Shown here: positions 1 through 28,591 of the stretch, one piece after another
Position numbering within the stretch: position 1 is the stretch's first letter
Layout: each line of letters opens with the position of its first letter
The notes under the pieces: model-generated
Seen by the model: the letters and a program-made list of their open reading frames with translations, nothing else
Database searches by the model: none
What the model was told of the DNA's origin: nothing
Translations under genes and position numbers: made by a program
Source: Nitrospira sp.
Lineage (GTDB): Bacteria > UBA10199 > SBBF01
Reading direction: 5' to 3'
Length of the DNA: 29,838 nucleotides
Assembly: GCA_005240075.1 (NCBI GenBank)
Contig: SBBF01000080.1
Location: forward strand, 1-29,838

Positions 1-97
1 ACAACCGTCATGTAAAAAAGAAATCACAAAAACCAGTCCTGTTGCCTGGGGGAATTTGACATGGCCACGACTGGGGGATTTTCAAGTGGCCACCGGG

Positions 98-180
98 GTC
101 ATCCAGCACTTAAAAGCTTTTGAGTGCTGGATAAACCCCCCGTTGGTTCGTTCGGACTGGCAAAGCCAGATCCTCACTCA
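98..180 (+). repeat. Composite hairpin element, copy A: a 32-nt near-perfect palindrome ATCCAGCACTTAAAAGCTTTTGAGTGCTGGAT at 101-132, followed by the family hairpin CTGGCAAAGCCAG at 157-169
   Basis: The palindrome is self-complementary with one mismatch. A near-identical composite recurs in inverted orientation at 14255-14365. The 13-mer is shared with 6350-6362, 6822-6834, 8432-8444 and 14267-14279. Confidence 0.8.
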
Positions 181-3682: not shown

Positions 3683-4573
3683 TTATTTCGAATGTGTTTT
3701 CCATTCAACTAGTGCCTTTAATACAAGAGTTGCCAGCGCCAGCAACCCCAATAACGAAGCGACAGAAAACGCGCCGATAAAATTATATTCGTTGTAAAGA
3801 ATTTCAACCTGCAACGGCATGGTGGTTGTCAATCCCTGAATATGCCCTGAAACAACGGATACCGCGCCAAACTCCCCCATCGCTCTGGCATTGAGGAGAA
3901 TAACCCCATAAAGCATTCCCCAGCGAATGTTGGGAAGAGTCACCAAAAAAAAAGTTTGCCAACCGCTGGCTCCCAACGTCAACGAGGCTTCTTCCTCCTC
4001 GTTCCCCTGAGCCTGCATGAGAGGGATTAATTCACGCGCTACAAAGGGGAAAGTGACAAAAACGGTCGTGATCACAATCCCCGGAACGGCAAAGATAATT
4101 TTGATGTCGTGCGCGTTCAAAAAAGAACCCAAAAGACCCTGAGATCCAAACAAGAGCACAAAGACCAACCCCGAGACGACGGGGGAAACGCTAAACGGCA
4201 AATCAATGAGGGAAATCAAAAATCGTTTTCCAAAAAATTCGAATTTGGCAATCGCCCAGGCGGCTGAAATCCCAAAAATCACGTTCAAGGGAATTGAAAT
4301 AGCCGCGACGGTCAGAGTCAAGCGGATGGCCGACAGATTTTCAGGCGTGAACAACGATTGAATATATCTGACAAAACCCTCGTTAAAGGCACCCGCAAAA
4401 ACAGTTAGAAGGGGGAGAATCAGCACAAAGAAAACAATTCCCAACGCCAGAAAAGTCAAAATAAGGCGGATTTCTTTCCTTTCCGAAACGACGGATGGAT
4501 AAAGCGAAGTTGGAAAAATATTAAAGTTTTTCCGGATCATGATTCCTTTTCTCTCCCCATCCCTGAAGCCCAT
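3683..4573 (-). CDS. cysW: Sulfate ABC transporter permease CysW
   Basis: A multi-TM ABC permease with an EAA-like loop, sitting between cysT and cysA. The likely true start is the internal Met at 4540 (MIRKNF...). Confidence 0.85.
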   Translation of the reverse strand: MGFRDGERKGIMIRKNFNIFPTSLYPSVVSERKEIRLILTFLALGIVFFVLILPLLTVFAGAFNEGFVRYIQSLFTPENLSAIRLTLTVAAISIPLNVIFGISAAWAIAKFEFFGKRFLISLIDLPFSVSPVVSGLVFVLLFGSQGLLGSFLNAHDIKIIFAVPGIVITTVFVTFPFVARELIPLMQAQGNEEEEASLTLGASGWQTFFLVTLPNIRWGMLYGVILLNARAMGEFGAVSVVSGHIQGLTTTMPLQVEILYNEYNFIGAFSVASLLGLLALATLVLKALVEWKTHSK

Positions 4574-10412: not shown

Positions 10413-11231
10413 TTAAAGGATAAACTGCCGGAAAACTTGTTCATAATTGAGAATCCACTGCTGTTCGGAGGGGTCTTCCAAAAAACGCCCCACATCCTTA
10501 AGGATGTCGGAGGCTCCTGCTTTTTTGACTTGTTGCTCAACAGCTTTCATGACTTGAGGCACATCCTTAAATTTTTTCCCCTTTGTGCCCCGGTTTAAAT
10601 AACTCAAGTTCAGTTCCGTTTTCCGGCTTAAATACCAGATGAGGTCATAATAGTCTCGACCGCGAGAATACGGTCGATGAAGCAGTGCCAAAATTTTTCC
10701 CGCGAACAGGGTGGGGAGGTTGTGTTTTAAGATCGGAAAAATCTCCTGAAAACGGTTGACGAAAAAACTTTCCCGCTCTCCTTTTTTGAGCGGAAGGGGA
10801 TTTACGTCCACTTCCAGTTTTACATGGAGTTTTTGATCCTCCTGGAAGCCCCTGAGGTCAAAGGCCCGTCCAAGGCCGGCAAAACGCAAGAAACCTTTTT
10901 GGACGATTTTGTTTTCCTGAAACGAGGAATCAATGTCAAAACCTCGCAGCTTAAGTTCGCGAGCCAACACATCCATCAGGTTGGCGAACCGGTAAGACTC
11001 TTTTTTGCCGTCCCGGCAGAAATCAAGGTCTTCGGAATAACGCTTGATGCCATGGCAGATGCGCAGGGCCGTTCCCCCCATAAACGACAGGCTCCCCCCA
11101 AAGGGGGACTGAAATACCATCTTGAGCACCAGCGTCTGGAGGTACTCGCGAAGGACATTGAGGACATCCTGATCCGTTGTCGGCAGGTTTCGCCTTCGAA
11201 GTTCTTCAATTATTTTTCTGGCTCTTTCCAT
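10413..11231 (-). CDS. abiEii: AbiEii/AbiGii-family nucleotidyltransferase toxin (type IV TA / abortive infection)
   Basis: Hallmark motif GGTALRICHGIKRYSEDLDF (PF08843-like GGTAL...R.SeDlDf) plus a DUF1814-like C-terminus. It overlaps the upstream abiEi by 26 nt. Confidence 0.75.
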   Translation of the reverse strand: MERARKIIEELRRRNLPTTDQDVLNVLREYLQTLVLKMVFQSPFGGSLSFMGGTALRICHGIKRYSEDLDFCRDGKKESYRFANLMDVLARELKLRGFDIDSSFQENKIVQKGFLRFAGLGRAFDLRGFQEDQKLHVKLEVDVNPLPLKKGERESFFVNRFQEIFPILKHNLPTLFAGKILALLHRPYSRGRDYYDLIWYLSRKTELNLSYLNRGTKGKKFKDVPQVMKAVEQQVKKAGASDILKDVGRFLEDPSEQQWILNYEQVFRQFIL

Positions 11232-11820
11232 AATTTGTTCGGTAATCCAAAAAGGAAGTTAAAAGTCGCCCCACCTTTTCAGGGTATTGCCGGGCATAGA
11301 CTTTAAGTTTCTTCACGTCAAGATCCCCGACATTTTGAAAGCGTTCTTCTCTCCAAAAAAGAGGAGTCGCTTTCAAGTGATGGCGATGGAAGTAGAAATA
11401 ATCCAGAAGAGCCTTCTCCTTTTCGGCCATGAGCGTTTGCGGGTCAAAGCCCCAAAAAAGTTTCTGATGAATCTTGTGATAAAAAAATTCCCCATAGGGG
11501 GTCTGGAACTTCCGGGTAAGTCGGGGGGTGACCAGAGTCATGGAAAAAGGGACATCGGGAATGAACCCATGGGCATGAAGGGCATATTCCAGACTGATAT
11601 AGGAGGGGCCGTACAAGATTTTTGCCACCTCCACTTTGTCCCTGATCCGATCCGGAAAACCATACACCCCTCTTTTGAAGCGGAGCAGCTCCCCCTGCCG
11701 ACACCAGTGGTGAAGCTGGACCTTCAACTGATTCGGGGAGGTTTCCCATCCCACCCGATGGGCCTCCTCCAAGGTAAAACAGGGTTTTTGCATTTTTTTG
11801 ACGAATTCATTAAGTTTCAT
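11206..11820 (-). CDS. abiEi: AbiEi-family antitoxin/transcriptional regulator (N-terminal wHTH)
   Basis: A 204-aa protein with QLHHWCRQGELLRFKRGVYGF, the AbiEi_4 signature l..G.l.ri.rGvY. It lies immediately upstream of, and overlapping, abiEii. Confidence 0.65.
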   Translation of the reverse strand: MKLNEFVKKMQKPCFTLEEAHRVGWETSPNQLKVQLHHWCRQGELLRFKRGVYGFPDRIRDKVEVAKILYGPSYISLEYALHAHGFIPDVPFSMTLVTPRLTRKFQTPYGEFFYHKIHQKLFWGFDPQTLMAEKEKALLDYFYFHRHHLKATPLFWREERFQNVGDLDVKKLKVYARQYPEKVGRLLTSFLDYRTNYGKSQKNN

Positions 11821-14254: not shown

Positions 14255-14365
14255 GTGAGTGAGGATCTGGCTTTGCCAGTTATGAGTGAGGATCGAATTT
14301 ACTTCGTCCGAGCGAATACCAAGGGGGTTTATCCAGCACTCAAAAGCTTTTGAGTGCTGGATGAA
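14255..14365 (-). repeat. Inverted copy (A') of the composite element seen at 98-180: CTGGCTTTGCCAG hairpin (14267-14279) plus the perfect 32-nt palindrome ATCCAGCACTCAAAAGCTTTTGAGTGCTGGAT (14331-14362)
   Basis: The reverse complement aligns with 98-180 (CATCCAGCACT.AAAAGCTTTTGAGTGCTGGATAAACCCCC...CTGGCAAAGCCAGATCCTCACTCA) with one internal indel. It is followed by GATGAAGGGGGC and a GGGGGC...GCCCCC hairpin before the tRNA. Confidence 0.8.
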
Positions 14366-14397: not shown

Positions 14398-14487
14398 GGA
14401 GAGGTGGCCGAGTGGTCGAAGGCGCCTGACTCGAAATCAGGTATACCTTTACCGGTATCGTGGGTTCGACTCCCACCCTCTCCGCCA
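14398..14487 (+). tRNA. tRNA-Ser (anticodon CGA), type II, with encoded CCA
   Basis: Manual fold: acceptor GGAGAGG/CCTCTCC, anticodon stem CCTGA/TCAGG with loop CTCGAAA, long variable arm, T-arm GTGGG-TTCGACT-CCCAC, 3' GCCA. Confidence 0.85.
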
Positions 14488-19467: not shown

Positions 19468-20046
19468 ATGTCCCCAAGAAAGTCTGAAACATCCCTGTTT
19501 GAAAAAGCAGTGCGGAAAGTGATCGGATTTTTGGAAGAACAAAAAATTCCCTACTTTGTCCTGGGGGGTCTTGCCGTGGGGGTCATGGGTGAGCCCCGCT
19601 TTACACGCGACATCGATCTCGACATATTTCTCAATACTGATGAAACAGGTCTTCTTTTGAAAAGGCTTAAACAGGCGGGGTTCACATTCAAAGCTAAAGA
19701 GGCCATGGTCACAGCTACCCAATTCGGCACCTTTCGAATATTTTATAAAACGGTTCAAATTGATATGATTATGGCTTCCACTGATCTGGAAAAAGAAGCT
19801 CTGAAAAGAAAAAAACGAGTTTCTTTTTTTAACCAGAAAACATCATTCCCGTCCGCAGAAGATCTGATTCTTCTCAAGTTGATTCCCGGAAGGCCCAAGG
19901 ACCTGCTGGATGCCGAATCAATCATAATCAGACAAAAAGACAAACTCGATCTGTCTTATCTTGAAAAATGGTCTCGTCAAATTTGCGAACTCTCCGAGGA
20001 CTTTCGGGTGATCAATCAATTAAAGAAAATGCTTGAGAAAAACTAG
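19468..20046 (+). CDS. Pol-beta superfamily minimal nucleotidyltransferase (MNT-like, DUF6036-like C-terminus)
   Basis: YFVLGGLAVGVMGEPRFTRDIDLDI has the hG[GS]-x9-13-DhD nucleotidyltransferase signature. The C-terminal LILLKLIPGRPKDLLDAESII motif is shared with the 28100-28591 protein. Confidence 0.55.
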   Translation: MSPRKSETSLFEKAVRKVIGFLEEQKIPYFVLGGLAVGVMGEPRFTRDIDLDIFLNTDETGLLLKRLKQAGFTFKAKEAMVTATQFGTFRIFYKTVQIDMIMASTDLEKEALKRKKRVSFFNQKTSFPSAEDLILLKLIPGRPKDLLDAESIIIRQKDKLDLSYLEKWSRQICELSEDFRVINQLKKMLEKN

Positions 20047-20066: not shown

Positions 20067-22043
20067 ATGACCGATAAAATAGCTGGATTGAAAGGTTTGA
20101 CGGTGGTTTCGTTCGAAAGCCGGATGAAGCTTCCGATGCAACGGTTAATTGAAAAGTATGGTGGAAAAGCTTTTGTCGCCCCTTCAATGAAAGAAGTGCC
20201 ACTGGCCGAAAATCCAGGAGCGTTTGATTTTTTTGAAAAACTGGAGAGAGATCAGTTTGATCTGGTGATTTTGATGACAGGGGTAGCCACCCGAACGCTG
20301 ATCCAGACTCTAGAAACCCGTTTCCCGAAGGAACGAATACTCGAAGCCCTTTCCACCAAGACAAAAATTGTCGTCCGGGGACCCAAGCCGACAGCGGTCT
20401 GCAAAATGAACCATATTCCGATTGTGGTGACCGCCCCCGAACCGAATACCTGGCGCGAAATTCTGGCCATCCTGAACGAAGAACAATTATTGGCCAATAA
20501 GCGAGTTGCCGTATTGGAATATGGCATATCGAATGTCTCGTTTTTGGAGGAACTGCAATTGGCCGGAGCCCAGGTGACCCCCGTCGCTGTTTATCAATGG
20601 GCCTTGCCTGATGATCTAGGCCCCTTAAATCAGGCTGTTGATTTAATCCTGGCTGGTGAGGCAGATCTGGCGCTGTTTACCACGTCGGTTCAGGTTGATC
20701 ATCTCCTAAAAATAACGCGCGAGAGGAAAAAAGAATTGGCCTTGCGTCGGGCTTTTCACAAAATCGGTGTTTGTTCTATCGGTCCCACCACAAGCGAAAA
20801 ACTGCGCGACCACCAAATTTTTCCTGATCTGGAGGCGAGCCCTAATAAAATGGATGCACTCGTGGAACAGGTCTCAGAAAAAGGAAAAGAGATTGTAGAG
20901 CAAAAAAGAGCGCGCTCAGAGAAGAGCTGGATATGGAAGGATTATCCGAAATTACGTAGGGGCGATCCTTGTGATCGCCCATTTGATCGGGCGAAGACAA
21001 GCTTCGCCCCTACGGATTCTCCCCTGATGCGCGCCTGCCGGCGCCAACCAAACAAGACGATTCCCATTTGGCTGATGCGCCAGGCGGGCCGTTATATGGC
21101 GGAGTATCATATTTCGCGACGGGGTTTGGGCTTTTTGGAATTTTGCAAGCGACCCGAGCTCACTGCCGAAGCCACCATCACAGCTGTTGAGCGATTAGGG
21201 GTGGATGCCGCCATCATTTTTGCCGATATTCTGCTGATTGTTGAACCAATGGGACTTAATCTCACTTATCTGGAAGGGGAAGGACCGGTGATTGCCACTC
21301 CAATTCGTGATGAAGAGAGTGTCGGCAAACTTAAACCGGTCGAGGTACAGGAGTCTCTCTGTTATGTTCTGGAAGCGGTCAAGACCGTTCGGCAATCGAT
21401 GCGCCCCGATATTCCTCTGATCGGTTTTTGCGGCGCCCCTTTTACCGTCGCTTCCTACATGATTGAGGGGAGAGGGACGGTGTCCCAAGGCTCCAAAAAT
21501 TTTATTCCGACAAAGATCCTGATGCACCAGCATCCGCAAACCTGGCATGAATTGATGGAAAAAATTACAATCGCTTCGATCGATTATTTGAACGCCCAAA
21601 TTGAAGCGGGAGCCGATGTAGTGCAGATCTTTGACAGCTGGGTGGGGGTTTTGAGCCCGCAAGAATACGAGGAGTATGTTCTTCCTCATTCCAAAAGACT
21701 CATTGATGGAATCAAAAAAGGGGTTCCCGTTATTCATTTTGGAACACAGACCGCTTCTCTTCTTTCCCTGATGAAAAAAGCAGGGGGGGATGTGATCGGG
21801 ATTGATTCAAGGACCGACATCCAAAAAGCGTGGGATCAACTGGGAGAGGTTGCCATTCAGGGAAATCTTGATCCGGTGATTCTTTTTTCAAAGCCTGAGA
21901 TTATTTGCAGGGAGGCCGAAAAAATACTCAAAGCTGTCGGGCACAAACCGGGATTTATTTTCAATCTGGGGCATGGCATTCTGCCGGAAACCCCTGTCGA
22001 CAACGTCATGGCGCTGGTTGATTTTGTCCATGAGGCAAAGTAA
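20067..22043 (+). CDS. hemD-hemE: Apparent fusion protein: uroporphyrinogen-III synthase (HemD, N-terminal, about 1-290) plus uroporphyrinogen decarboxylase (HemE, C-terminal, about 313-658)
   Basis: The HemD-like N-half has two alpha/beta subdomains. The HemE half carries RQPNKTIPIWLMRQAGRYM...PELTAEATI...DAAIIFADIL......GFCGAPFT.ASYM......NLGHGI. There is no in-frame stop across the junction. The linker is encoded by the palindromic doublet 20956-21013. An internal ATG at 21025 could start a separate hemE. Confidence 0.75.
   Translation: MTDKIAGLKGLTVVSFESRMKLPMQRLIEKYGGKAFVAPSMKEVPLAENPGAFDFFEKLERDQFDLVILMTGVATRTLIQTLETRFPKERILEALSTKTKIVVRGPKPTAVCKMNHIPIVVTAPEPNTWREILAILNEEQLLANKRVAVLEYGISNVSFLEELQLAGAQVTPVAVYQWALPDDLGPLNQAVDLILAGEADLALFTTSVQVDHLLKITRERKKELALRRAFHKIGVCSIGPTTSEKLRDHQIFPDLEASPNKMDALVEQVSEKGKEIVEQKRARSEKSWIWKDYPKLRRGDPCDRPFDRAKTSFAPTDSPLMRACRRQPNKTIPIWLMRQAGRYMAEYHISRRGLGFLEFCKRPELTAEATITAVERLGVDAAIIFADILLIVEPMGLNLTYLEGEGPVIATPIRDEESVGKLKPVEVQESLCYVLEAVKTVRQSMRPDIPLIGFCGAPFTVASYMIEGRGTVSQGSKNFIPTKILMHQHPQTWHELMEKITIASIDYLNAQIEAGADVVQIFDSWVGVLSPQEYEEYVLPHSKRLIDGIKKGVPVIHFGTQTASLLSLMKKAGGDVIGIDSRTDIQKAWDQLGEVAIQGNLDPVILFSKPEIICREAEKILKAVGHKPGFIFNLGHGILPETPVDNVMALVDFVHEAK
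20956..21013. repeat. REPIN-like inverted doublet of 25-nt GTAG-initiated hairpin units, lying inside the hemD-hemE ORF
   Basis: Unit 1 is GTAGGGGCGATCCTTGTGATCGCCC (20956-20980). Unit 2 on the opposite strand is GTAGGGGCGAAGCTTGTCTTCGCCC (21013-20989). The spacer is 8 nt. Each unit folds as a GGGCGA/TCGCCC hairpin. GTAG 5' termini are the hallmark of REP elements. Confidence 0.6.
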
Positions 22044-22090: not shown

Positions 22091-23365
22091 ATGGCCCATT
22101 TAAGGGAAAGATTTGTCCAGAATCCACTCCTCAAATCGCTTGCGTGGTCCCCGGTTGTCGGAATTTACGGGTTGAGGCAGGTCGGAAAAAGCACGCTGGT
22201 GGAAACTGTTGTCAAAAAGAAAAACGGACTCTATGAATCGTTTGACCGCAGCGCTACTCTGACATCGTCAGAGAATCTTCCTTACCAGTTTTGTGAAAGA
22301 GATCGACTTCTCTGCATTGACGAGTGCCAGAAAGGGCCATGGGTTTTCCCAGTTATCAAGGATCTGATTGGAACCAGGCGAAGACCAGGCCGTTTTTTGC
22401 TGACCGGATCCATTCGTTTTACCCTCAAAAAAGAAATCCAAGAGGCACTCACAGGGCGCATCATTTTATATGAGCTTTTACCATTCACCCTCGCTGAAGC
22501 GATGCACCGCACTCCATCACTGTTTTTGGAAACCTGCTTTGAAAAAATTTTCAAGGGGGGTCCGGTCCGGCAAAAGGATTGTGAAGACCTGCTGGACTCT
22601 GTTGGAAAAATGTCGGCTTCGAGAAAGACAGGTTTGCAACAAATCCTCCGGCATTTGTCAGTGGGGGGGATGCCGATTCCCTGCTTCAGCCGTGATGAAG
22701 AGCGCCGTAAGCAGTGGACCGAGGGGTTTTTTGAGACCATGATCACGCGGGATTTGCCCCTGGCGGATCCAGGTTTGTCCGGAATTTTGCCTGCACAGGG
22801 GTTGTCATTTCTCAAACGGCTTGCCCTGATGCAGGGGGAGGAACTGAATTATTCGGAACTGGCGGGAAGCGCGGCTCTTGGTTTGGATAAGGCCAAACGG
22901 ATGTTAAAAGCATTGGTCGCGTTATGTTTGATTGACCTGATCGTTCCCGAGGGGCATGCCCGCAAATCCCAGAGAAAAATGCGCGTGGAATGGAAGGATT
23001 CCGGCTTGTGGAATTATTTTAGTCAGACCCCCTTTCACATGCTCGCCGATAATCAGGCGGCTATGTCCCTTTTCTTGTCACAGGAGCTTCGCTTTCAGCA
23101 GAGCATGACCAAAAGAATGACCCAGTGGACTTATTACAAAAGTCACAACGGCGCGAACATTCCGTGGATAGTCAGGCAGGGACGAAATATGCTTGCGCTT
23201 GTTTATTTGCCAACCGAAAGTCCAACCCCTTATCATTATCGTGCACTCAAGCAACTTTTGGCGCGTGAACCTCAGGGATGCGGCATCATTCTGGGGGCTG
23301 AGAAGGCTCCCTGCAGGGCTCTGGATCATCGCATTTTGCTCATGCCTTACACCACGGTGTTGTAA
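22091..23365 (+). CDS. AAA+ ATPase (AAA_14 plus DUF4143 architecture, COG1373-like)
   Basis: P-loop GLRQVGKST near the N-terminus. 424 aa, the typical size for this family. The C-terminal region is DUF4143-like. Confidence 0.65.
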   Translation: MAHLRERFVQNPLLKSLAWSPVVGIYGLRQVGKSTLVETVVKKKNGLYESFDRSATLTSSENLPYQFCERDRLLCIDECQKGPWVFPVIKDLIGTRRRPGRFLLTGSIRFTLKKEIQEALTGRIILYELLPFTLAEAMHRTPSLFLETCFEKIFKGGPVRQKDCEDLLDSVGKMSASRKTGLQQILRHLSVGGMPIPCFSRDEERRKQWTEGFFETMITRDLPLADPGLSGILPAQGLSFLKRLALMQGEELNYSELAGSAALGLDKAKRMLKALVALCLIDLIVPEGHARKSQRKMRVEWKDSGLWNYFSQTPFHMLADNQAAMSLFLSQELRFQQSMTKRMTQWTYYKSHNGANIPWIVRQGRNMLALVYLPTESPTPYHYRALKQLLAREPQGCGIILGAEKAPCRALDHRILLMPYTTVL

Positions 23366-23389
23366 ATATAGTAGAAAGCAAATAGTCAC

Positions 23390-23899
23390 ATGATCATGGG
23401 GTTGGGACAGTCACAAAAATCAGGTCAGTCAGATCGAACCCAATTTGGAGGATCTTTTGGTACGGGAGGAGGGCTGGATACTCTTTTCAGTTCACTGGAT
23501 GCATCGGTGGCCGAAAATCTGGTGATTCTGATTTCCGGTGAGTTTGGGCGTCAGCTGAGCGCGAATGGGGATGGGGGGACAGATCATGGAAGAGGAAACA
23601 GTATGTTGGTGATTGGAGATCCTGTTGTCGGTGGTCTTTACGGCGATCTTTTTCCTGAAAGTGAGCTAGCCCGTTTTGATGAACCGAGTAGTGATATTGA
23701 AGGGCTGACCTCCATGGAACATGTTTTTGGGGCTGTTTGGGGCTGTTTGGGGCTGTTTGTGACTGGATGCAAGCCGGGGCTGGCAGTGTCGTGTTTCCCA
23801 ACCGGTCGGGTGCTGATTTGGAGGAAGGGGTCAGTCTGGAAGGATTGTTGGTTTAAGATTCCCACTCATTTCTTTTTGCCCGCTTCGTTGATCATTTGA
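23390..23899 (+). pseudogene. Truncated fragment of a DUF1501-family gene (C-terminal about 100 aa only), carrying a tandem 11-nt repeat
   Basis: NLVILISGEFGRQLSANGDGGTDHGRGNSMLVIGDPVVGGLYGDLFPE matches the DUF1501 C-terminal signature (l.v..gEFGRtp.....GRDH......l.aGggv.gG.vyG.td). Full-length members are over 400 aa. TTTGGGGCTGT occurs 3 times in tandem at 23726-23758. The 3' end overlaps hemH by 34 nt. Confidence 0.5.
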
Positions 23900-25916: not shown

Positions 25917-27302
25917 TCAGACCGCCCTCGAAAAGGCCGCTGTTTTTGACCTCTCTTTTATTCCTGCATGATACACATCAAACACCATCGCCATGTTGCG
26001 CAAAAACAAACGCCCCTCATTTTTAACCAAAAATGTGGAAGGGAAAATTTCCAGCAAATCGTCCTCAATAAAAGGAACAAGCCCTCTCTTTTCCTGTTCA
26101 AAATAACTCCAAAAATCAAGCCCCCATTTTTTTTCAAAAGAGGGAATATCCACACAACCGCGGCACATGATCTGGGTGATCAAGTCTCGTCTTACATGAT
26201 CATCTCTTTCGAGTAGAAATCCACGAAAAGTGGCTAACTGTCCGCTTGCAATTTTTTCATTATATTTTTTTAAATCTTTTTGGTTCTGAAAATAATTCCC
26301 GTTCACATACGAAATGGCTGAAACGCCGAAACCGATCTGATGGGCTTCAGCCCGTGTGGAATACCCCATAAAATTTCGGTGAATCGTCCCCTCGTCCAGG
26401 GCATGCGCCAGTTCGTCATCTTCAAGGGCAAAATGATCCAGGCCAATCGATCGATAACCATTTTGAGTCAAAATAGGGTAGGCCGTTTCAAAAAGTTTAA
26501 GCTTGATCTCCGGAGAGGGGAGGTCCGAATCGTTGAAAGTCCTCTGGACCGGGCGGGCCCACGGAACATGAGCATAGCTGTAAACGGCCAGACGATTGGG
26601 CCTCAATTCCAGAATCTGCTCCAACGTTCTGATCCATCCGTCCATCGTTTGGCCCGGAAGGCCATAAACCAAATCAATATTAAAGTGCTGGAATCCCAAA
26701 CCTCGAAGATAAGTGATCATGTCGCGCGTCATTTCATAAGTTTGATGGCGGTTGATCAGTTTTTGAACATGCGGATCAAGATCCTGCACACCCAATGAAA
26801 TACGATTAAACCCGAGCGTCTTTAAATTATCACAAAAGGATTGTGTTGAAGTGCGTGGATGCATCTCAATCGCCATTTCCGCATCGGGCAAAAGAGTAAA
26901 ACGCCGGCTCACCTTTAAAACAATTTCCGTCAATTCTTCCGGTTGAAAAAAGTTAGGGCTGCCCCCTCCAAAATGGAGTTGGGTGACAGGTGGGGCAGGG
27001 CTTGCCCTGCCCTTACACATTTGATTTAATACCAAATCAATTTCTCTCAACAAAATATCCGTATAGTCCCGCGACCGGCTCTGATCTTTGGTGATCACCT
27101 GCATGCATCCACAAAAATGGCAGAGGTTTTCGCAAAAGGGGAGATGGAAATAGAGGGATAATTGTTCCCCCATGTCTTTCAACGCCTTTTCATAATCCCT
27201 TGCTGTCACCTGTTCCGTCCAGGCCAACACCGTCGGATAACTGGTATACCGCGGCGCCGGAATATCGTATTTTTTAAGAAGATCACAAAGAGAGGGGGGC
27301 AT
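25917..27302 (-). CDS. hemN: Oxygen-independent coproporphyrinogen III oxidase (radical SAM)
   Basis: YTSYPTVLAW, radical-SAM CxxxCxxC (CENLCHFC), about 460 aa with a HemN C-terminal domain. Confidence 0.9.
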   Translation of the reverse strand: MPPSLCDLLKKYDIPAPRYTSYPTVLAWTEQVTARDYEKALKDMGEQLSLYFHLPFCENLCHFCGCMQVITKDQSRSRDYTDILLREIDLVLNQMCKGRASPAPPVTQLHFGGGSPNFFQPEELTEIVLKVSRRFTLLPDAEMAIEMHPRTSTQSFCDNLKTLGFNRISLGVQDLDPHVQKLINRHQTYEMTRDMITYLRGLGFQHFNIDLVYGLPGQTMDGWIRTLEQILELRPNRLAVYSYAHVPWARPVQRTFNDSDLPSPEIKLKLFETAYPILTQNGYRSIGLDHFALEDDELAHALDEGTIHRNFMGYSTRAEAHQIGFGVSAISYVNGNYFQNQKDLKKYNEKIASGQLATFRGFLLERDDHVRRDLITQIMCRGCVDIPSFEKKWGLDFWSYFEQEKRGLVPFIEDDLLEIFPSTFLVKNEGRLFLRNMAMVFDVYHAGIKERSKTAAFSRAV

Positions 27303-27354: not shown

Positions 27355-28110
27355 TCAAAATGGACGGGGTTGAGGTGCGGAATTACCTGCAAACAGGTTT
27401 AACAAAACCTTAAGAAAGGGATAAGGGACCTGAAAAATTCTCTCAGCTCCTACTTTCGTAACTTTGCCCAGGCCGATTTTGCAGAGTGCCATGAGTTCGG
27501 AATAAACGGGCTGATAACTTTGACCGAGGGCAAAAGAGATTTCGAGGGCATTTCCCTCTTTGTTTTTTATAAAATAGCTGAAAATCTCCGCACGCGTCCC
27601 AGCCCCAAAAAGGGCCCTCAGAGCCAAGTTGGGATTATTTCTTAAAACGTAGGGTTTCTCAAGAATAGCTTCCCCCATAGTACTCATTTCCCGAGAGATT
27701 AAATTCCAACGTTTCCAAACGGACAAACATTCTTCCTGGTTCAATTCTGATTCTGTTGGAGATCTTCCAATTCTTCTGAAAAGGAATTCGGGCTTATTCA
27801 ATTTCCGACAATATCTTCGAACGGCCTTTAAAACAGAGCGTGGATTAATCTCAATAACAGAATCGATGACTGCCCCCAACACCGCTGTCTGCTTTTCCTG
27901 TCGGACAAAACGAATGAGCCTGCTTCCATTGACAAGGTCATGGTGTTTTAACAGCCACCCTCGCATCCCAAAAAGCAGACGTGAATCGTCGCGACCCGCT
28001 TGCGATGTTTCAACAAGGATCTTTTCCAAATCAACAAGGTCCTCCACGGAAAATGACTGATCGAAAGCCACTCCCAGCCGGGTCCATAGAGTGTATAAGT
28101 CACTCAACAA
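27355..28110 (-). CDS. Hypothetical 251-aa protein: a possible HEPN-like N-region (RGWLLKH = R-x5-H) with a C-terminal winged-helix. Candidate partner of the upstream nucleotidyltransferase
   Basis: It overlaps the upstream NTase gene by 11 nt, suggesting an operon. The C-terminal LALRALFGAGTRAEIFSYFIKNKEGNALEISFALGQSYQPVYSELMALCKIGL resembles a wHTH. FGMRGWLLKHHDL fits the HEPN Rx4-6H motif. The assignment is inferential. Confidence 0.45.
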   Translation of the reverse strand: MLSDLYTLWTRLGVAFDQSFSVEDLVDLEKILVETSQAGRDDSRLLFGMRGWLLKHHDLVNGSRLIRFVRQEKQTAVLGAVIDSVIEINPRSVLKAVRRYCRKLNKPEFLFRRIGRSPTESELNQEECLSVWKRWNLISREMSTMGEAILEKPYVLRNNPNLALRALFGAGTRAEIFSYFIKNKEGNALEISFALGQSYQPVYSELMALCKIGLGKVTKVGAERIFQVPYPFLKVLLNLFAGNSAPQPRPF

Positions 28111-28591
28111 GGTTCCATTCCTCCAATCGAAGTTTTATATGGAGCGCCGTTTTTGGATCGAATCTGGAAATCCGCTCCAGATTTTTCATGATAATGGCCG
28201 TGTCTTTTTTACCGATCTCCAAAAATTGAATATCTGCCAAATCTCTTTCCCTGGCCGCTTTCAGTTTTAACATCAAAAGATCGGGTTTTCCCAAAGAGCT
28301 TATTTTCAGATTCTTCAATCCAAGCTTCAGCGGTATCAGCCTTTCTGTCCAGCCTTCCGGCAAGTAACTGGCATAGCCTTTACAAGAATCATTGAGCCAC
28401 TCGGTTGAAAGTCCTTCTTCCAGCGCAATCTTCTTTACTTTTTCTCGCAAGGACTCTGAAAGAGGAACGGGTGCGATGACATCGACATCCTGGGTTTGCC
28501 TTTTCCCTTTAAATGCCAGGGCCACAGCCATACCGCCGCAAATAATCAGAGTTTCCTTCTTTTCCAGTTCCGAATTCAATCTCCCAAGCAA
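28100..28591 (-). CDS. Pol-beta superfamily minimal nucleotidyltransferase (MNT-like)
   Basis: LIICGGMAVALAFKGKRQTQDVDVI has the GG...DxD nucleotidyltransferase motif. C-terminal LLMLKLKAARERDLADI is similar to the 19468 protein. The start appears to be a TTG, and no good SD is visible. Confidence 0.55.
   Translation of the reverse strand: MLGRLNSELEKKETLIICGGMAVALAFKGKRQTQDVDVIAPVPLSESLREKVKKIALEEGLSTEWLNDSCKGYASYLPEGWTERLIPLKLGLKNLKISSLGKPDLLMLKLKAARERDLADIQFLEIGKKDTAIIMKNLERISRFDPKTALHIKLRLEEWNLVE

What the first reader, a model, noticed from the sequence alone, without database searches (positions are those of the whole stretch)
20067..22043. HemD-HemE fusion ORF whose inter-domain linker is encoded by a REPIN-like GTAG hairpin doublet
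The ORF reads through a complete HemD-like N-half and a complete HemE C-half with no in-frame stop, which is not a canonical arrangement. The 19-aa linker LRRGDPCDRPFDRAKTSFAPTD is encoded by 20956-21013. This is two 25-nt hairpin-forming units, each beginning GTAGGGGCGA and ending TCGCCC, in inverted orientation with an 8-nt spacer. That is the architecture of REP doublets (REPINs). It suggests that a REPIN inserted between hemD and hemE, or into a pre-existing fusion, and is now translated. Alternatively the locus is really two genes and a frameshift or sequencing error hides the hemD stop. An internal ATG at 21025 could initiate HemE alone.
Basis: partly seen in the sequence, partly recalled or inferred. 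Interest (0 to 1): 0.65.

Follow-up and report, generated by a model that had tools for sequence, protein, structure and literature searches.

The report
Mobile hairpin repeat translated as enzyme linker

Summary
ORF 20067-22043 encodes full-length HemD (HEM4) and HemE (URO-D) domains. Nucleotides 20956-21013 are two 25-nt GTAG-headed hairpins in inverted orientation with an 8-nt spacer.

The fusion is not an artefact. At least 120 protein clusters, down to 49% identity and from several phyla, have the same two-domain architecture.

The hairpins belong to a widespread family. GTAGGGGCGA-NN-CTTGT-NN-TCGCCC gave at least 120 loci in many phyla (chance expectation about 0.3). The free stem positions were Watson-Crick complementary in 135 of 142 copies. 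About 40% of copies are head-to-head dimers, mostly with 6-11-nt spacers. One genome carries a REP-associated tyrosine transposase flanked by the repeat.

The two closest HemDE relatives lack the doublet, so it entered an already fused gene. It encodes residues 297-316, the least confident stretch of an otherwise confident AlphaFold model, ending where canonical HemE begins.

Other HemDE lineages carry different palindromes at the same junction, some visibly decaying. The same repeat family lies in frame in linkers of unrelated fusion genes.

Intragenic GTAG REP dimers encoding 20-30 residues were described in 2013. This is therefore a new member of a known kind. I found no evidence for a hidden frameshift or for internal initiation.

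The parts
20067..22043 (+). hemDE fusion ORF (658 aa): uroporphyrinogen-III synthase fused to uroporphyrinogen decarboxylase
   Evidence: ORF list. Pfam HEM4 plus URO-D. NCBIfam hemE at 400 bits. At least 120 homologous clusters with both domains.
20136..20867 (+). HemD (HEM4) domain, aa 24-267
   Evidence: Pfam PF02602, E 8e-31, profile 3-231 of 231. AlphaFold pLDDT is mostly above 90.
20850..20927 (+). Long helix (aa 262-287) that ends the HemD half and precedes the variable linker. It includes the conserved K-R-x-R-A-E-x-x-W motif.
   Evidence: DSSP on the AlphaFold model gives H262-287. Conservation is seen in alignments A1 and A2.
20955..21014 (+). Codons 297-316 (RRGDPCDRPFDRAKTSFAPT), the peptide encoded by the hairpin doublet. 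GTAG is read in codon phase 2 (C GTA GGG becomes CGT AGG = R R).
   Evidence: Translation. This is the lowest-confidence internal stretch of the model, with pLDDT block means of 70, 55 and 76 for residues 291-320.
20956..20980 (+). REP unit 1: GTAG head plus an 8-bp stem and 5-nt loop (GTAGGGGCGATCCTTGTGATCGCCC)
   Evidence: RNA fold -13.4 kcal/mol, z = -3.8.
20981..20988 (.). 8-nt spacer (ATTTGATC) between the two inverted units
   Evidence: Spacers of 6-11 nt are the commonest in dimers of this family.
20989..21013 (-). REP unit 2, inverted (GTAGGGGCGAAGCTTGTCTTCGCCC on the - strand). With unit 1 it forms a head-to-head heterodimer with the GTAG termini outside.
   Evidence: RNA fold -14.2 kcal/mol, z = -5.2. 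The whole doublet folds at -39.8 kcal/mol, z = -9.3.
21015..22034 (+). HemE (URO-D) domain, aa 317-656. It begins immediately after the doublet.
   Evidence: Pfam PF01208, E 6e-125. Solved HemE chains align from query residues 315-320; residue 2 of 2eja_A aligns with residue 315.
26989..27016 (-). Second in-frame REP-like palindrome in the same haem cluster: GTAAGGGCAGGGCAAGCCCTGCCCCACC inside hemN (25917-27302, -). It lies in the loop where the closest relative carries a 52-nt GTAG...CTAC doublet.
   Evidence: RNA fold -17.3 kcal/mol.

Best explanation
The gene is a genuine, conserved HemD-HemE fusion, joining two consecutive haem-pathway enzymes in one polypeptide. In the lineage of this window, a head-to-head dimer of a GTAG-tagged REP inserted into the short variable linker of the already fused gene. 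The site lies between the terminal helix of HemD and the first residues of HemE. REPs are REPIN-like miniature mobile elements of the kind thought to be moved by RAYT tyrosine transposases.

The copy survived for three reasons. It is in a stop-free phase (GTAG read as CGT-AGG). It preserves the reading frame. It lands in a segment that needs no defined fold. It is therefore translated as about 20 residues of flexible linker and is most likely a tolerated passenger, not a functional module.

Shown here: the anatomy, family membership of the hairpins, absence of the doublet from the nearest orthologues, the age of the fusion, and the low-confidence structure of the encoded peptide.

Inferred: the insertion mechanism (RAYT-mediated, single-stranded hairpin) and neutrality.
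For: The fusion is real and old:
- At least 120 clusters have both Pfam domains at 49-78% identity, annotated from Deltaproteobacteria-type MAGs, NC10, Dadabacteria, Acidobacteria and Thermodesulfobacteriota.
- Catalytic-region columns are invariant in both halves.
- The AlphaFold model has mean pLDDT 92.6 and pTM 0.87.

The hairpins belong to a real repeat family:
- The free NN/NN stem positions are Watson-Crick complementary in 135 of 142 copies, using 8 different pair combinations.
- 57 of 142 units have an inverted partner with GTAG outside, and 24 of those spacers are 6-11 nt.
- The 6.6-kb contig of one HemDE relative (L205) has three copies, one of them intergenic and one at the contig end.

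The family is linked to a RAYT. In MAG WY4.bin79 (L087, with further copies on L027 and L075), a gene is preceded by a unit at 505-529. After its own REP insert is removed, it matches NCBIfam REP_Tyr_transpos at E 1e-20 and Pfam Y1_Tnp at 25.1 bits.

The doublet is derived:
- P0002 and P0003 lack it.
- Synteny with L001 shows that the alignment breaks exactly at the linker.
- Distant fusions have no linker hairpins.

The site is permissive:
- Residues 297-316 are the low-pLDDT coil.
- The HemE fold begins at about residue 315-318.
- In an unfused relative (L176), the hemE start codon aligns with the codon that follows the doublet.

The element looks like a passenger. In the P0024/P0025/P0027 clade, one shared element is intact in one member and degenerate in the others.

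There is precedent and generality:
- The same family lies in frame in the linkers of FdhD-MobA, TilS-deaminase and TIR/EAD7-FGE-sulfatase proteins, and in a kinase loop.
- Di Nocera et al. 2013 list intragenic GTAG REP dimers that encode 20-30 residues, including one in Geobacter FdhD (PMC3733652).
Against: - The rest of the source genome is not available, so neither copy number nor a cognate RAYT could be checked for this organism.
- No other copy of the family occurs in the 29.8-kb window, even at 3 mismatches, and no Y1 transposase is encoded there. A REP-rich genome would be expected to show intergenic copies.
- Both hairpins are perfect, with intact GTAG heads. That fits a recent insertion but also fits selection on the structure.
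- At least five HemDE lineages carry a palindrome at the same junction, two of them as perfect 12-bp stems. This is more recurrence than a purely random process obviously predicts.
- 58 nt is not a multiple of three, and no clean empty site could be reconstructed from the relatives. The exact insertion event is therefore not resolved.
Confidence: 0.8

Rival explanations
1. The hairpin at the domain boundary is a selected cis-acting element and not a passenger. A very stable mRNA structure placed exactly between the two domains could pause ribosomes so that HemD folds first. It could also act as an RNA processing or stability site that adjusts the relative output of the two halves.
For: - The doublet folds at -39.8 kcal/mol as RNA.
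- It ends within one codon of the canonical HemE N-terminus.
- Palindromes occur at the same junction in at least five HemDE lineages, and their stem sequences are completely different but still perfectly paired.
- Hairpin density in the linker of the close clade is more than tenfold that of the rest of the genes.
- Di Nocera et al. argue that many REPs act as RNA elements.
Against: - The two closest relatives have no hairpin, and none of the 10 scored fusions at 43-48% identity has one.
- Within one clade the element is visibly decaying (L205 versus L210, and P0025).
- The same sequence family is scattered in unrelated intergenic and intragenic places.
- No T-run or terminator-like site lies at the doublet, and no promoter lies downstream.
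- No Rfam family matches.
Confidence: 0.1
2. The junction was colonised once, early in the 59-78% identity clade. The differences now seen come from later loss, decay and overwriting of that one element by gene conversion from whichever REP variants each genome carried. They do not come from independent insertions. On this view the window's doublet is a refreshed copy of an old insert.
For: - In L003, L205, L207 and L210 the GTAG head is in the same codon phase. The element also sits at the same place relative to the conserved W-V-R and (D/E)-S-x-x-R-A-C flanks.
- Several element-free linkers retain P-L-(Q/P)-(D/E)-S. This could be a remnant of CCCCTAC.
- The conserved GTAGGGGC and GCCCCTAC ends would provide homology for conversion.
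Against: - The window's element is in a different phase, and its upstream linker (W-I-W-K-D-Y-P-K-L) differs.
- Two lineages carry unrelated C-rich palindromes without GTAG heads (L208, L209).
- Element-bearing sequences are scattered on the neighbour-joining tree, with element-free sisters.
- The neighbour-joining tree carries no support values, so this rival is weakened but not excluded.
Confidence: 0.15
3. The fusion is an artefact. On this view hemD and hemE are separate genes, and an assembly or sequencing error in the palindromic stretch removed the hemD stop codon or restored the frame.
For: - Palindromic repeats are error-prone in assembly. One relative's contig ends inside a copy of the repeat (L205).
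- Unfused, overlapping hemD/hemE genes do exist in some organisms (L176).
Against: - The same single-ORF architecture is found in at least 120 independent clusters from many assemblies.
- The conserved helix and motif upstream of the linker, and the HemE N-terminus downstream, are in frame with each other, as in all homologues.
- Both Pfam domains are complete.
Confidence: 0.02

Closest known systems
GTAG-tagged REPs and their head-to-head (HH) dimers (Di Nocera, De Gregorio and Rocco 2013, BMC Genomics 14:522, PMC3733652); REPINs (Bertels and Rainey 2011, PMC3116915 and PMC3337134)
   Same: - An unpaired GTAG next to a 6-13-bp stem-loop.
- Sub-families with complementary stem changes.
- Two units in inverted orientation with GTAG outside and a short spacer, able to fold as two hairpins or one long one.
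- Association with RAYT genes flanked by the repeats (seen here in L087).
- Heterodimers with different stems are described in that paper.
   Different: - The copy number and the RAYT of the source genome are unknown.
- The window holds only this one dimer.
- The spacer (8 nt) is shorter than the 20-100 bp said to be usual, although 1-5 bp cases are described.
- I could not establish which, if any, of the 24 published GTAG families this sequence belongs to. The figure is not held, and GTAGGGGCG and GGGCGA are absent from the supplements.
Intragenic REPs of Opitutus terrae, Thauera, Xanthomonas and Geobacter uraniireducens (Additional file 3 of PMC3733652)
   Same: - In-frame REP singletons and dimers inside real genes that encode about 20-30 residues.
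- Gura_3370, an FdhD-family protein of 487 aa, has a GTAG-11 dimer at aa 254-268. This matches the FdhD-MobA linker insertion I found in another Geobacter (L085).
- Different REPs at about the same site in orthologous recB genes of two Xanthomonas species parallel the recurrent HemDE junction.
   Different: - No haem-synthesis gene is in that list.
- The inter-domain linker as a preferred site, and the recurrence across at least five lineages of one gene family, were not described there.
Rickettsia palindromic elements (RPE-1, RPE-4, RPE-6), as summarised in PMC3733652
   Same: Palindromic repeats inserted in frame into protein-coding genes and translated. Some decorated proteins are expressed in vivo.
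   Different: According to Di Nocera et al., the intragenic R. conorii repeats counted there (RPE-4 and RPE-6) are CGTC-type. RPE-1 is a longer insertion. These are a different sequence family, host group and tag, so the window's element is not a member.
Fusions of consecutive haem-pathway enzymes, such as HemH-HemQ (CpfC-ChdC) in Cutibacterium acnes (PMC13564367)
   Same: Two steps of the pathway in one polypeptide, which plausibly favours hand-over of a labile intermediate.
   Different: The partners differ. I found no paper describing a HemD-HemE fusion, and no solved structure covers both domains. NCBI MAG records and JGI call these proteins simply uroporphyrinogen decarboxylase.

Membership tests
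GTAG-tagged REP super-family | Unpaired GTAG tetranucleotide directly next to a short stem-loop (stem 6-13 bp) | tested here: met
   Both units are GTAG plus a perfect 8-bp stem and a 5-nt loop.
GTAG-tagged REP super-family | Family members share the sequence but show complementary (compensated) stem variants | tested here: met
   135 of 142 copies from at least 120 loci have Watson-Crick NN/NN, in 8 combinations. The window's two units are the TC/GA and AG/CT variants.
GTAG-tagged REP super-family | Many dispersed copies within the same genome | not testable with these tools
   Only the 29.8-kb window of the source genome is available, and it holds no further copy. The contig is not on record for look-up. 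In other genomes the family is multi-copy: 3 copies in 6.6 kb of L205, and copies on 3 or more contigs of several MAGs.
GTAG-tagged REP super-family | Predominantly extragenic location | tested here: not met
   This copy is intragenic. At family level, 124 of 142 units are not spanned by an ORF extending at least 80 aa on both sides. Documented intragenic exceptions exist (PMC3733652).
REPIN | [quoted passage not shown] | tested here: met
   Units at 20956-20980 (+) and 20989-21013 (-) with an 8-nt spacer. The single long hairpin folds at -39.8 kcal/mol, with internal loops where the stems differ.
REPIN | Cognate single-copy RAYT in the same genome, typically flanked by the repeat | not testable with these tools
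   No Y1_Tnp was found among 30 window ORFs, and there is no HUH motif in the six-frame translation. The rest of the genome is unavailable. In MAG WY4.bin79 a RAYT is flanked by this family: REP_Tyr_transpos at E 1e-20 and 74 bits, against a cut-off of 80.
REPIN | Population of near-identical dimer copies replicating within the genome | not testable with these tools
   This needs the whole genome. A peptide-level search for other translated copies of this exact dimer found none.
HemD-HemE (HEM4 + URO-D) fusion proteins | Complete HEM4 and URO-D domains in one uninterrupted ORF, in that order | tested here: met
   Pfam coverage is 3-231 of 231 and 3-345 of 346. There is no internal stop.
HemD-HemE (HEM4 + URO-D) fusion proteins | Orthologues with the same architecture and conserved functional columns in both halves | tested here: met
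   All of the best 120 hits carry both Pfam domains. Invariant columns include RQAGR, D387, Y464, the T71-G72 motif and S237-G239-P240. That these are functional residues rests on general knowledge of UROD and HemD and was not tested here.
Rickettsia palindromic elements | Membership of the RPE sequence families of Rickettsia | not tested
   No sequence comparison with RPEs was run. Di Nocera et al. class the intragenic R. conorii repeats (RPE-4 and RPE-6) as CGTC-type, whereas this element is GTAG-headed. The resemblance is in behaviour (in-frame insertion), not in family.

The most novel reading that the evidence does not exclude
Inter-domain linkers of fused enzymes, and the HemD-HemE junction in particular, may be preferred landing or retention sites for GTAG REP dimers across many phyla. 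Head-to-head dimers are stop-free in two of three phases and encode Gly/Pro/Arg-rich peptides. They could therefore act as ready-made linker-coding cassettes. By sitting between co-directional genes, they might even promote gene fusion.

The evidence does not exclude this:
- At least five HemDE lineages carry palindromes at the junction.
- In a sample of 120 unrelated loci, in-frame copies lie in the linkers of FdhD-MobA, TilS-deaminase and TIR/EAD7-FGE-sulfatase fusions and in a kinase loop. A further in-frame dimer lies inside a RAYT gene.

For HemDE itself, however, the fusion clearly came first.
Probability: 0.15. Interest if true: 0.6.

Novelty: new member of a known kind. Interest (0 to 1): 0.33.

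Why it matters
- For annotation: the odd Arg/Gly/Pro-rich linker is repeat-derived. It should not be taken for a frameshift, a pseudogene or a functional motif.
- It documents a widespread HemD-HemE fusion for which I found no published description. The fusion would couple formation of uroporphyrinogen III to its commitment to the haem branch.
- It adds a clean example of selfish palindromic DNA being absorbed into coding sequence at a permissive site. There is a natural series of fresh and decaying copies in orthologous linkers.
- It shows that one near-identical 25-nt GTAG hairpin family, with covarying stem positions, is spread over many bacterial phyla in current MAG collections.
- If linkers prove to be preferred sites, REP dimers would be a recurrent raw material for linker evolution.

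Tried and rejected
- The window's own contig could not be recovered: P0001 is not on record and its cluster has one unnamed member.
- An all-against-all BLAST of 3,921 ORFs from the 120 REP loci found no gene family travelling with the repeat. Only ABC ATPases, short-chain dehydrogenases and response regulators recurred. A RAYT was found only by an HUH-motif scan, in one locus.
- The protein database was searched with the REP-encoded peptide. The duplicated 44-aa query gave 3 word-sharing candidates and no hit.
- Rfam gave nothing at the linker, only SRP RNA and two tRNAs elsewhere.
- The terminator and promoter scan found nothing at the doublet. I therefore rejected an intrinsic terminator or an internal promoter for hemE.
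- The metagenome scan for HemDE relatives returned mostly unfused hemE. Only 12 fusions, at 43-48% identity, were recovered, and none of the 10 scored had a linker hairpin. L176 turned out to be unfused.
- Literature searches for a described HemD-HemE fusion found none.
- The second palindrome family of the window (95-138 and 14328-14365) has no copy in any fetched locus.
- I could not reconstruct a clean empty target site from L001 or L002, because the linkers are too diverged.
- I did not determine the source taxon beyond noting that its relatives are Deltaproteobacteria-type MAGs.
Full report
**1. Observation**

The ORF 20067..22043 (+) is uninterrupted and encodes 658 residues. Pfam places a complete HEM4 domain at residues 24-267 and a complete URO-D domain at residues 317-656. 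NCBIfam's hemE equivalog scores 400 bits against a cut-off of 303.

- 20956-20980 (+): GTAGGGGCGATCCTTGTGATCGCCC
- 20989-21013 (-): GTAGGGGCGAAGCTTGTCTTCGCCC
- They are separated by 8 nt.

Each unit is GTAG followed by a perfect 8-bp stem and a 5-nt loop. The stems differ at two positions, and both differences are compensated. As RNA the units fold at -13.4 and -14.2 kcal/mol. The whole 58-mer folds into one long hairpin at -39.8 kcal/mol (z = -9.3).

Three small corrections apply. The quoted peptide has 22 residues. The doublet lies within codons 297-316 (RRGDPCDRPFDRAKTSFAPT). The in-frame ATG is at 21027, not 21025.

**2. The fusion is real, old and common**

A search of about 5.8 billion proteins returned 120 best hits that all carry both Pfam domains. 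Identities run from 78% to 49%. The hits come from MAGs labelled Deltaproteobacteria, NC10, Dadabacteria, Acidobacteria and Thermodesulfobacteriota.

Alignments of 24 and 82 members show invariant columns across both halves. A hypervariable stretch lies between a conserved K-R-x-R-A-E-x-x-W helix and the conserved (D/E)-S-P-x-x-R-A-C start of HemE.

AlphaFold2 with the 82-sequence alignment gives mean pLDDT 92.6 and pTM 0.87. A long helix spans residues 262-287. The only weak internal stretches are residues 291-320 (block means 70, 55 and 76) and a window-specific 4-residue insertion near 473-475.

Solved HemE structures align from query residues 315-320 onward, and none covers the HemD half. 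In one metagenomic relative (L176), hemD and hemE are separate genes with overlapping stop and start. Its hemE begins M-D-S-V-F-L-K-A-C, which aligns with T317-D-S-P-L-M-R-A-C of the window.

The doublet therefore occupies what was once the inter-gene junction and ends one codon before the ancestral start position. A frameshift or sequencing error is not needed and is very unlikely.

**3. The hairpins belong to a widespread GTAG REP family**

I scanned 596 Gb of species-representative genomes for GTAGGGGCGA-NN-CTTGT-NN-TCGCCC. This pattern has 21 fixed bases, and by my own arithmetic the chance expectation is about 0.3.

The four free positions are Watson-Crick complementary in 135 of 142 copies, where about 9 would be expected by chance. 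Eight different pair combinations are used. That is direct covariation evidence for the hairpin.

Fifty-seven units have an inverted partner within 60 nt with the GTAG termini outside. In 24 of these the spacer is 6-11 nt, and many partners have different stems. The window's 8-nt-spaced heterodimer is thus a typical dimer of this family.

No gene family recurs next to the copies. An HUH-motif scan found one RAYT-like gene, at L087 582-1231 in Deltaproteobacteria MAG WY4.bin79, which also has copies on L027 and L075:
- It is preceded by a unit at 505-529 and followed by a CTAC-tailed hairpin.
- It carries an in-frame dimer of the same family between its HUH and Tyr motifs.
- With that insert removed, it matches NCBIfam REP_Tyr_transpos at E 1e-20 (74 bits, cut-off 80) and Pfam Y1_Tnp at 25.1 bits (cut-off 23).

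**4. The doublet is a derived insertion in this lineage**

The closest homologues, P0002 (76%) and P0003 (72%), have linkers without any palindrome. P0003 has K-S-W-V-W-I-D-Y-P-S-L, then 14 unrelated residues, then S-S-P-L-L-R-A-C. The window has 21 residues (codons 297-317, R-R-G to A-P-T) at that place.

Nucleotide synteny with L001 covers the peptidase gene, both halves of hemDE, hemH, hemJ and hemN. It breaks exactly at the linker (window 20912-21029).

Ten of the fusions at 43-48% identity could be scored, and none has a linker hairpin. By parsimony the fusion preceded the element.

**5. The junction is colonised repeatedly**

Seven of the nine other HemDE genes of the 59-78% clade for which I obtained DNA carry a palindromic element at the same junction:
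- L003: a perfect 28-nt palindrome, GTAGGGGCGTATTGCAATACGCCCCTAC.
- L207: GTAGGGGCAATTCATGAATTGCCCCTAC.
- L205: GTAGGGGAC followed by GGGCGAACACAAGGTTCGCCCCTAC, the AC/GT variant of the window's family.
- L206: an imperfect unit of the same type.
- L210: a degenerate GTAGGGG...CGCCCCTAC.
- L208 and L209: C-rich hairpins of other families.

I had predicted several of these from the peptide signatures alone (VGAYCNTPL, GRTQGSPL, VGAIHELPL) before seeing the DNA.

On a neighbour-joining tree built without the linker columns, element-bearing sequences fall in at least five places with element-free sisters. The tree carries no support values.

Across the 20 scored genes, perfect stems of at least 8 bp number 8 in 1,920 nt of linker. 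The rest of the genes hold 11 in 36,576 nt, about a 14-fold enrichment. All eight linker hairpins are in the close clade.

Within the P0024/P0025/P0027 clade, one shared element is intact in one member and decayed in the others. That argues against selection for the structure.

All in-frame copies use codon phase 1 (GTA GGG, read as V-G) or phase 2 (CGT AGG, read as R-R). Phase 3 would create a TAG stop.

**6. The phenomenon is general and already published**

Among the 142 family units, 18 lie in ORFs that extend at least 80 residues on both sides. Pfam confirms real domains flanking the element in four cases:
- Geobacter FdhD + MobA: a dimer at aa 283-308, between domains at 26-278 and 320-466.
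- Deinococcales TilS + deaminase.
- TIR/EAD7 + FGE-sulfatase.
- A Ser/Thr kinase, where the element lies inside the kinase domain.

All four are GTAG-outside dimers.

In the window's closest relative (L001), a 52-nt GTAG...CTAC doublet is in frame inside hemN. It is read R-R-G...A-P-T, as in the window. At the same hemN loop the window itself has a 28-nt palindrome at 26989-27016.

Di Nocera, De Gregorio and Rocco (2013, PMC3733652) reported the following:
- They defined the GTAG super-family and its HH, TT and HT dimers and heterodimers.
- They reported REPs located inside genes in several species.
- They list Gura_3370, an FdhD-family protein with a GTAG-11 dimer.
- They note different REPs at about the same site in two Xanthomonas recB genes.
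- They equate the intragenic R. conorii repeats with RPE-4 and RPE-6.

No haem gene appears in their list. I found no paper on a HemD-HemE fusion.

**7. Mechanism and its limits**

The best-supported account is a selfish REP dimer that landed in a structurally unconstrained linker of a pre-existing fusion. It persisted because it is stop-free and preserves the frame.

RAYT-mediated mobility through single-stranded hairpins is inferred from the literature and from the L087 association. It was not shown for this genome.

Four points count against a simple passenger story:
- No other copy of the family occurs in the window.
- No RAYT is encoded in the window.
- Both hairpins are perfect.
- The junction recurs in several lineages.

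These points leave room for a functional hairpin, such as a translational pause or an RNA processing site, at about 0.1. They also leave room for a single ancient insertion refreshed by gene conversion, at about 0.15. An artefact is at about 0.02.

**8. Verdict**

The alternatives of a frameshift and of an internal start are not supported.

This is a new member of a known kind, the in-frame GTAG REP dimer. It comes with two modestly new side results. One is a widespread HemD-HemE fusion for which I found no published description. The other is recurrent REP occupancy of its linker.

Noticed in passing
window 26989-27016 (-), inside hemN (25917-27302, -): A 28-nt REP-like palindrome, GTAAGGGCAGGGCAAGCCCTGCCCCACC, is translated in frame (C-K-G-R-A-S-P-A-P-P) in a variable loop of the radical-SAM HemN. 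The closest relative (L001 5531-5582) has a 52-nt GTAG...CTAC doublet in the same loop. This is a second repeatedly occupied site in the same gene cluster.
   Followed up: partly
L087 505-1290 (Deltaproteobacteria MAG WY4.bin79): A RAYT-like gene (582-1231) has a unit of the window's REP family just upstream (505-529) and a CTAC-tailed hairpin downstream. It also carries an in-frame head-to-head dimer of that family (843-949) between its HUH and catalytic Tyr motifs. The presumed transposase has thus been invaded by its own cargo.
   Followed up: partly
L085 2524-2599; L063 5767-5840; L077 7453-7520; L104 2020-2108: In-frame GTAG-outside dimers of the same family lie in other proteins: between FdhD and MobA (Geobacter), between TilS and a deaminase (Deinococcales), between EAD7 and an FGE-sulfatase domain, and in a loop of a Ser/Thr kinase domain.
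   Followed up: partly
L176 about 4045-4067: In an organism where hemD and hemE are separate, overlapping genes, a CTAC-tailed hairpin (GGGGCGCACAGCTGTACGCCCCTAC) is translated inside hemD itself (I-K-A-G-A-H-S-C-T-P-L-L).
   Followed up: no
window 95-138 and 14328-14365: Two copies of an unrelated zero-spacer palindrome of about 40 nt (core ATCCAGCACTCAAAAG|CTTTTGAGTGCTGGAT). The second lies 33 nt upstream of a tRNA gene (14398-14484). No copy occurs in any fetched locus.
   Followed up: partly
window 19468-20046 and 22091-23899: Relative to the syntenic contig L001, the haem cluster of the window has gained three things: a DUF6036 nucleotidyltransferase gene between the M15 peptidase and hemDE, and an AAA_14/DUF4143 ATPase gene plus a DUF1501 fragment between hemDE and hemH. 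An AbiEii/AbiEi pair lies at 10413-11820, and another DUF6036 gene at 28100-28591.
   Followed up: no
window about 21477-21491 (HemE aa 471-475): A window-specific insertion of about 4 residues (T-V-S-Q) in a HemE surface loop, absent from all aligned homologues. pLDDT is below 50 there. The DNA contains a small GGGAC-GGT-GTCCC hairpin.
   Followed up: no
L205 1502-1530 and 6627-6652: The contig of a HemDE relative has, besides its linker element, a GTAGGGGCGAACTTTGGCTTCGCCCCTAC palindrome overlapping the stop codon of the upstream DAHP-synthase gene. Another unit sits at the very end of the contig, suggesting that the repeat breaks assemblies.
   Followed up: no
L060, L021, L048, L039, L046: Exact copies of the 25-nt pattern also occur in MAGs labelled Promethearchaeota (Asgard archaeon), Tannerella, Chryseobacterium, Pseudoflavonifractor and Ruminococcaceae. 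I did not examine whether this reflects true cross-domain spread or bin contamination.
   Followed up: no
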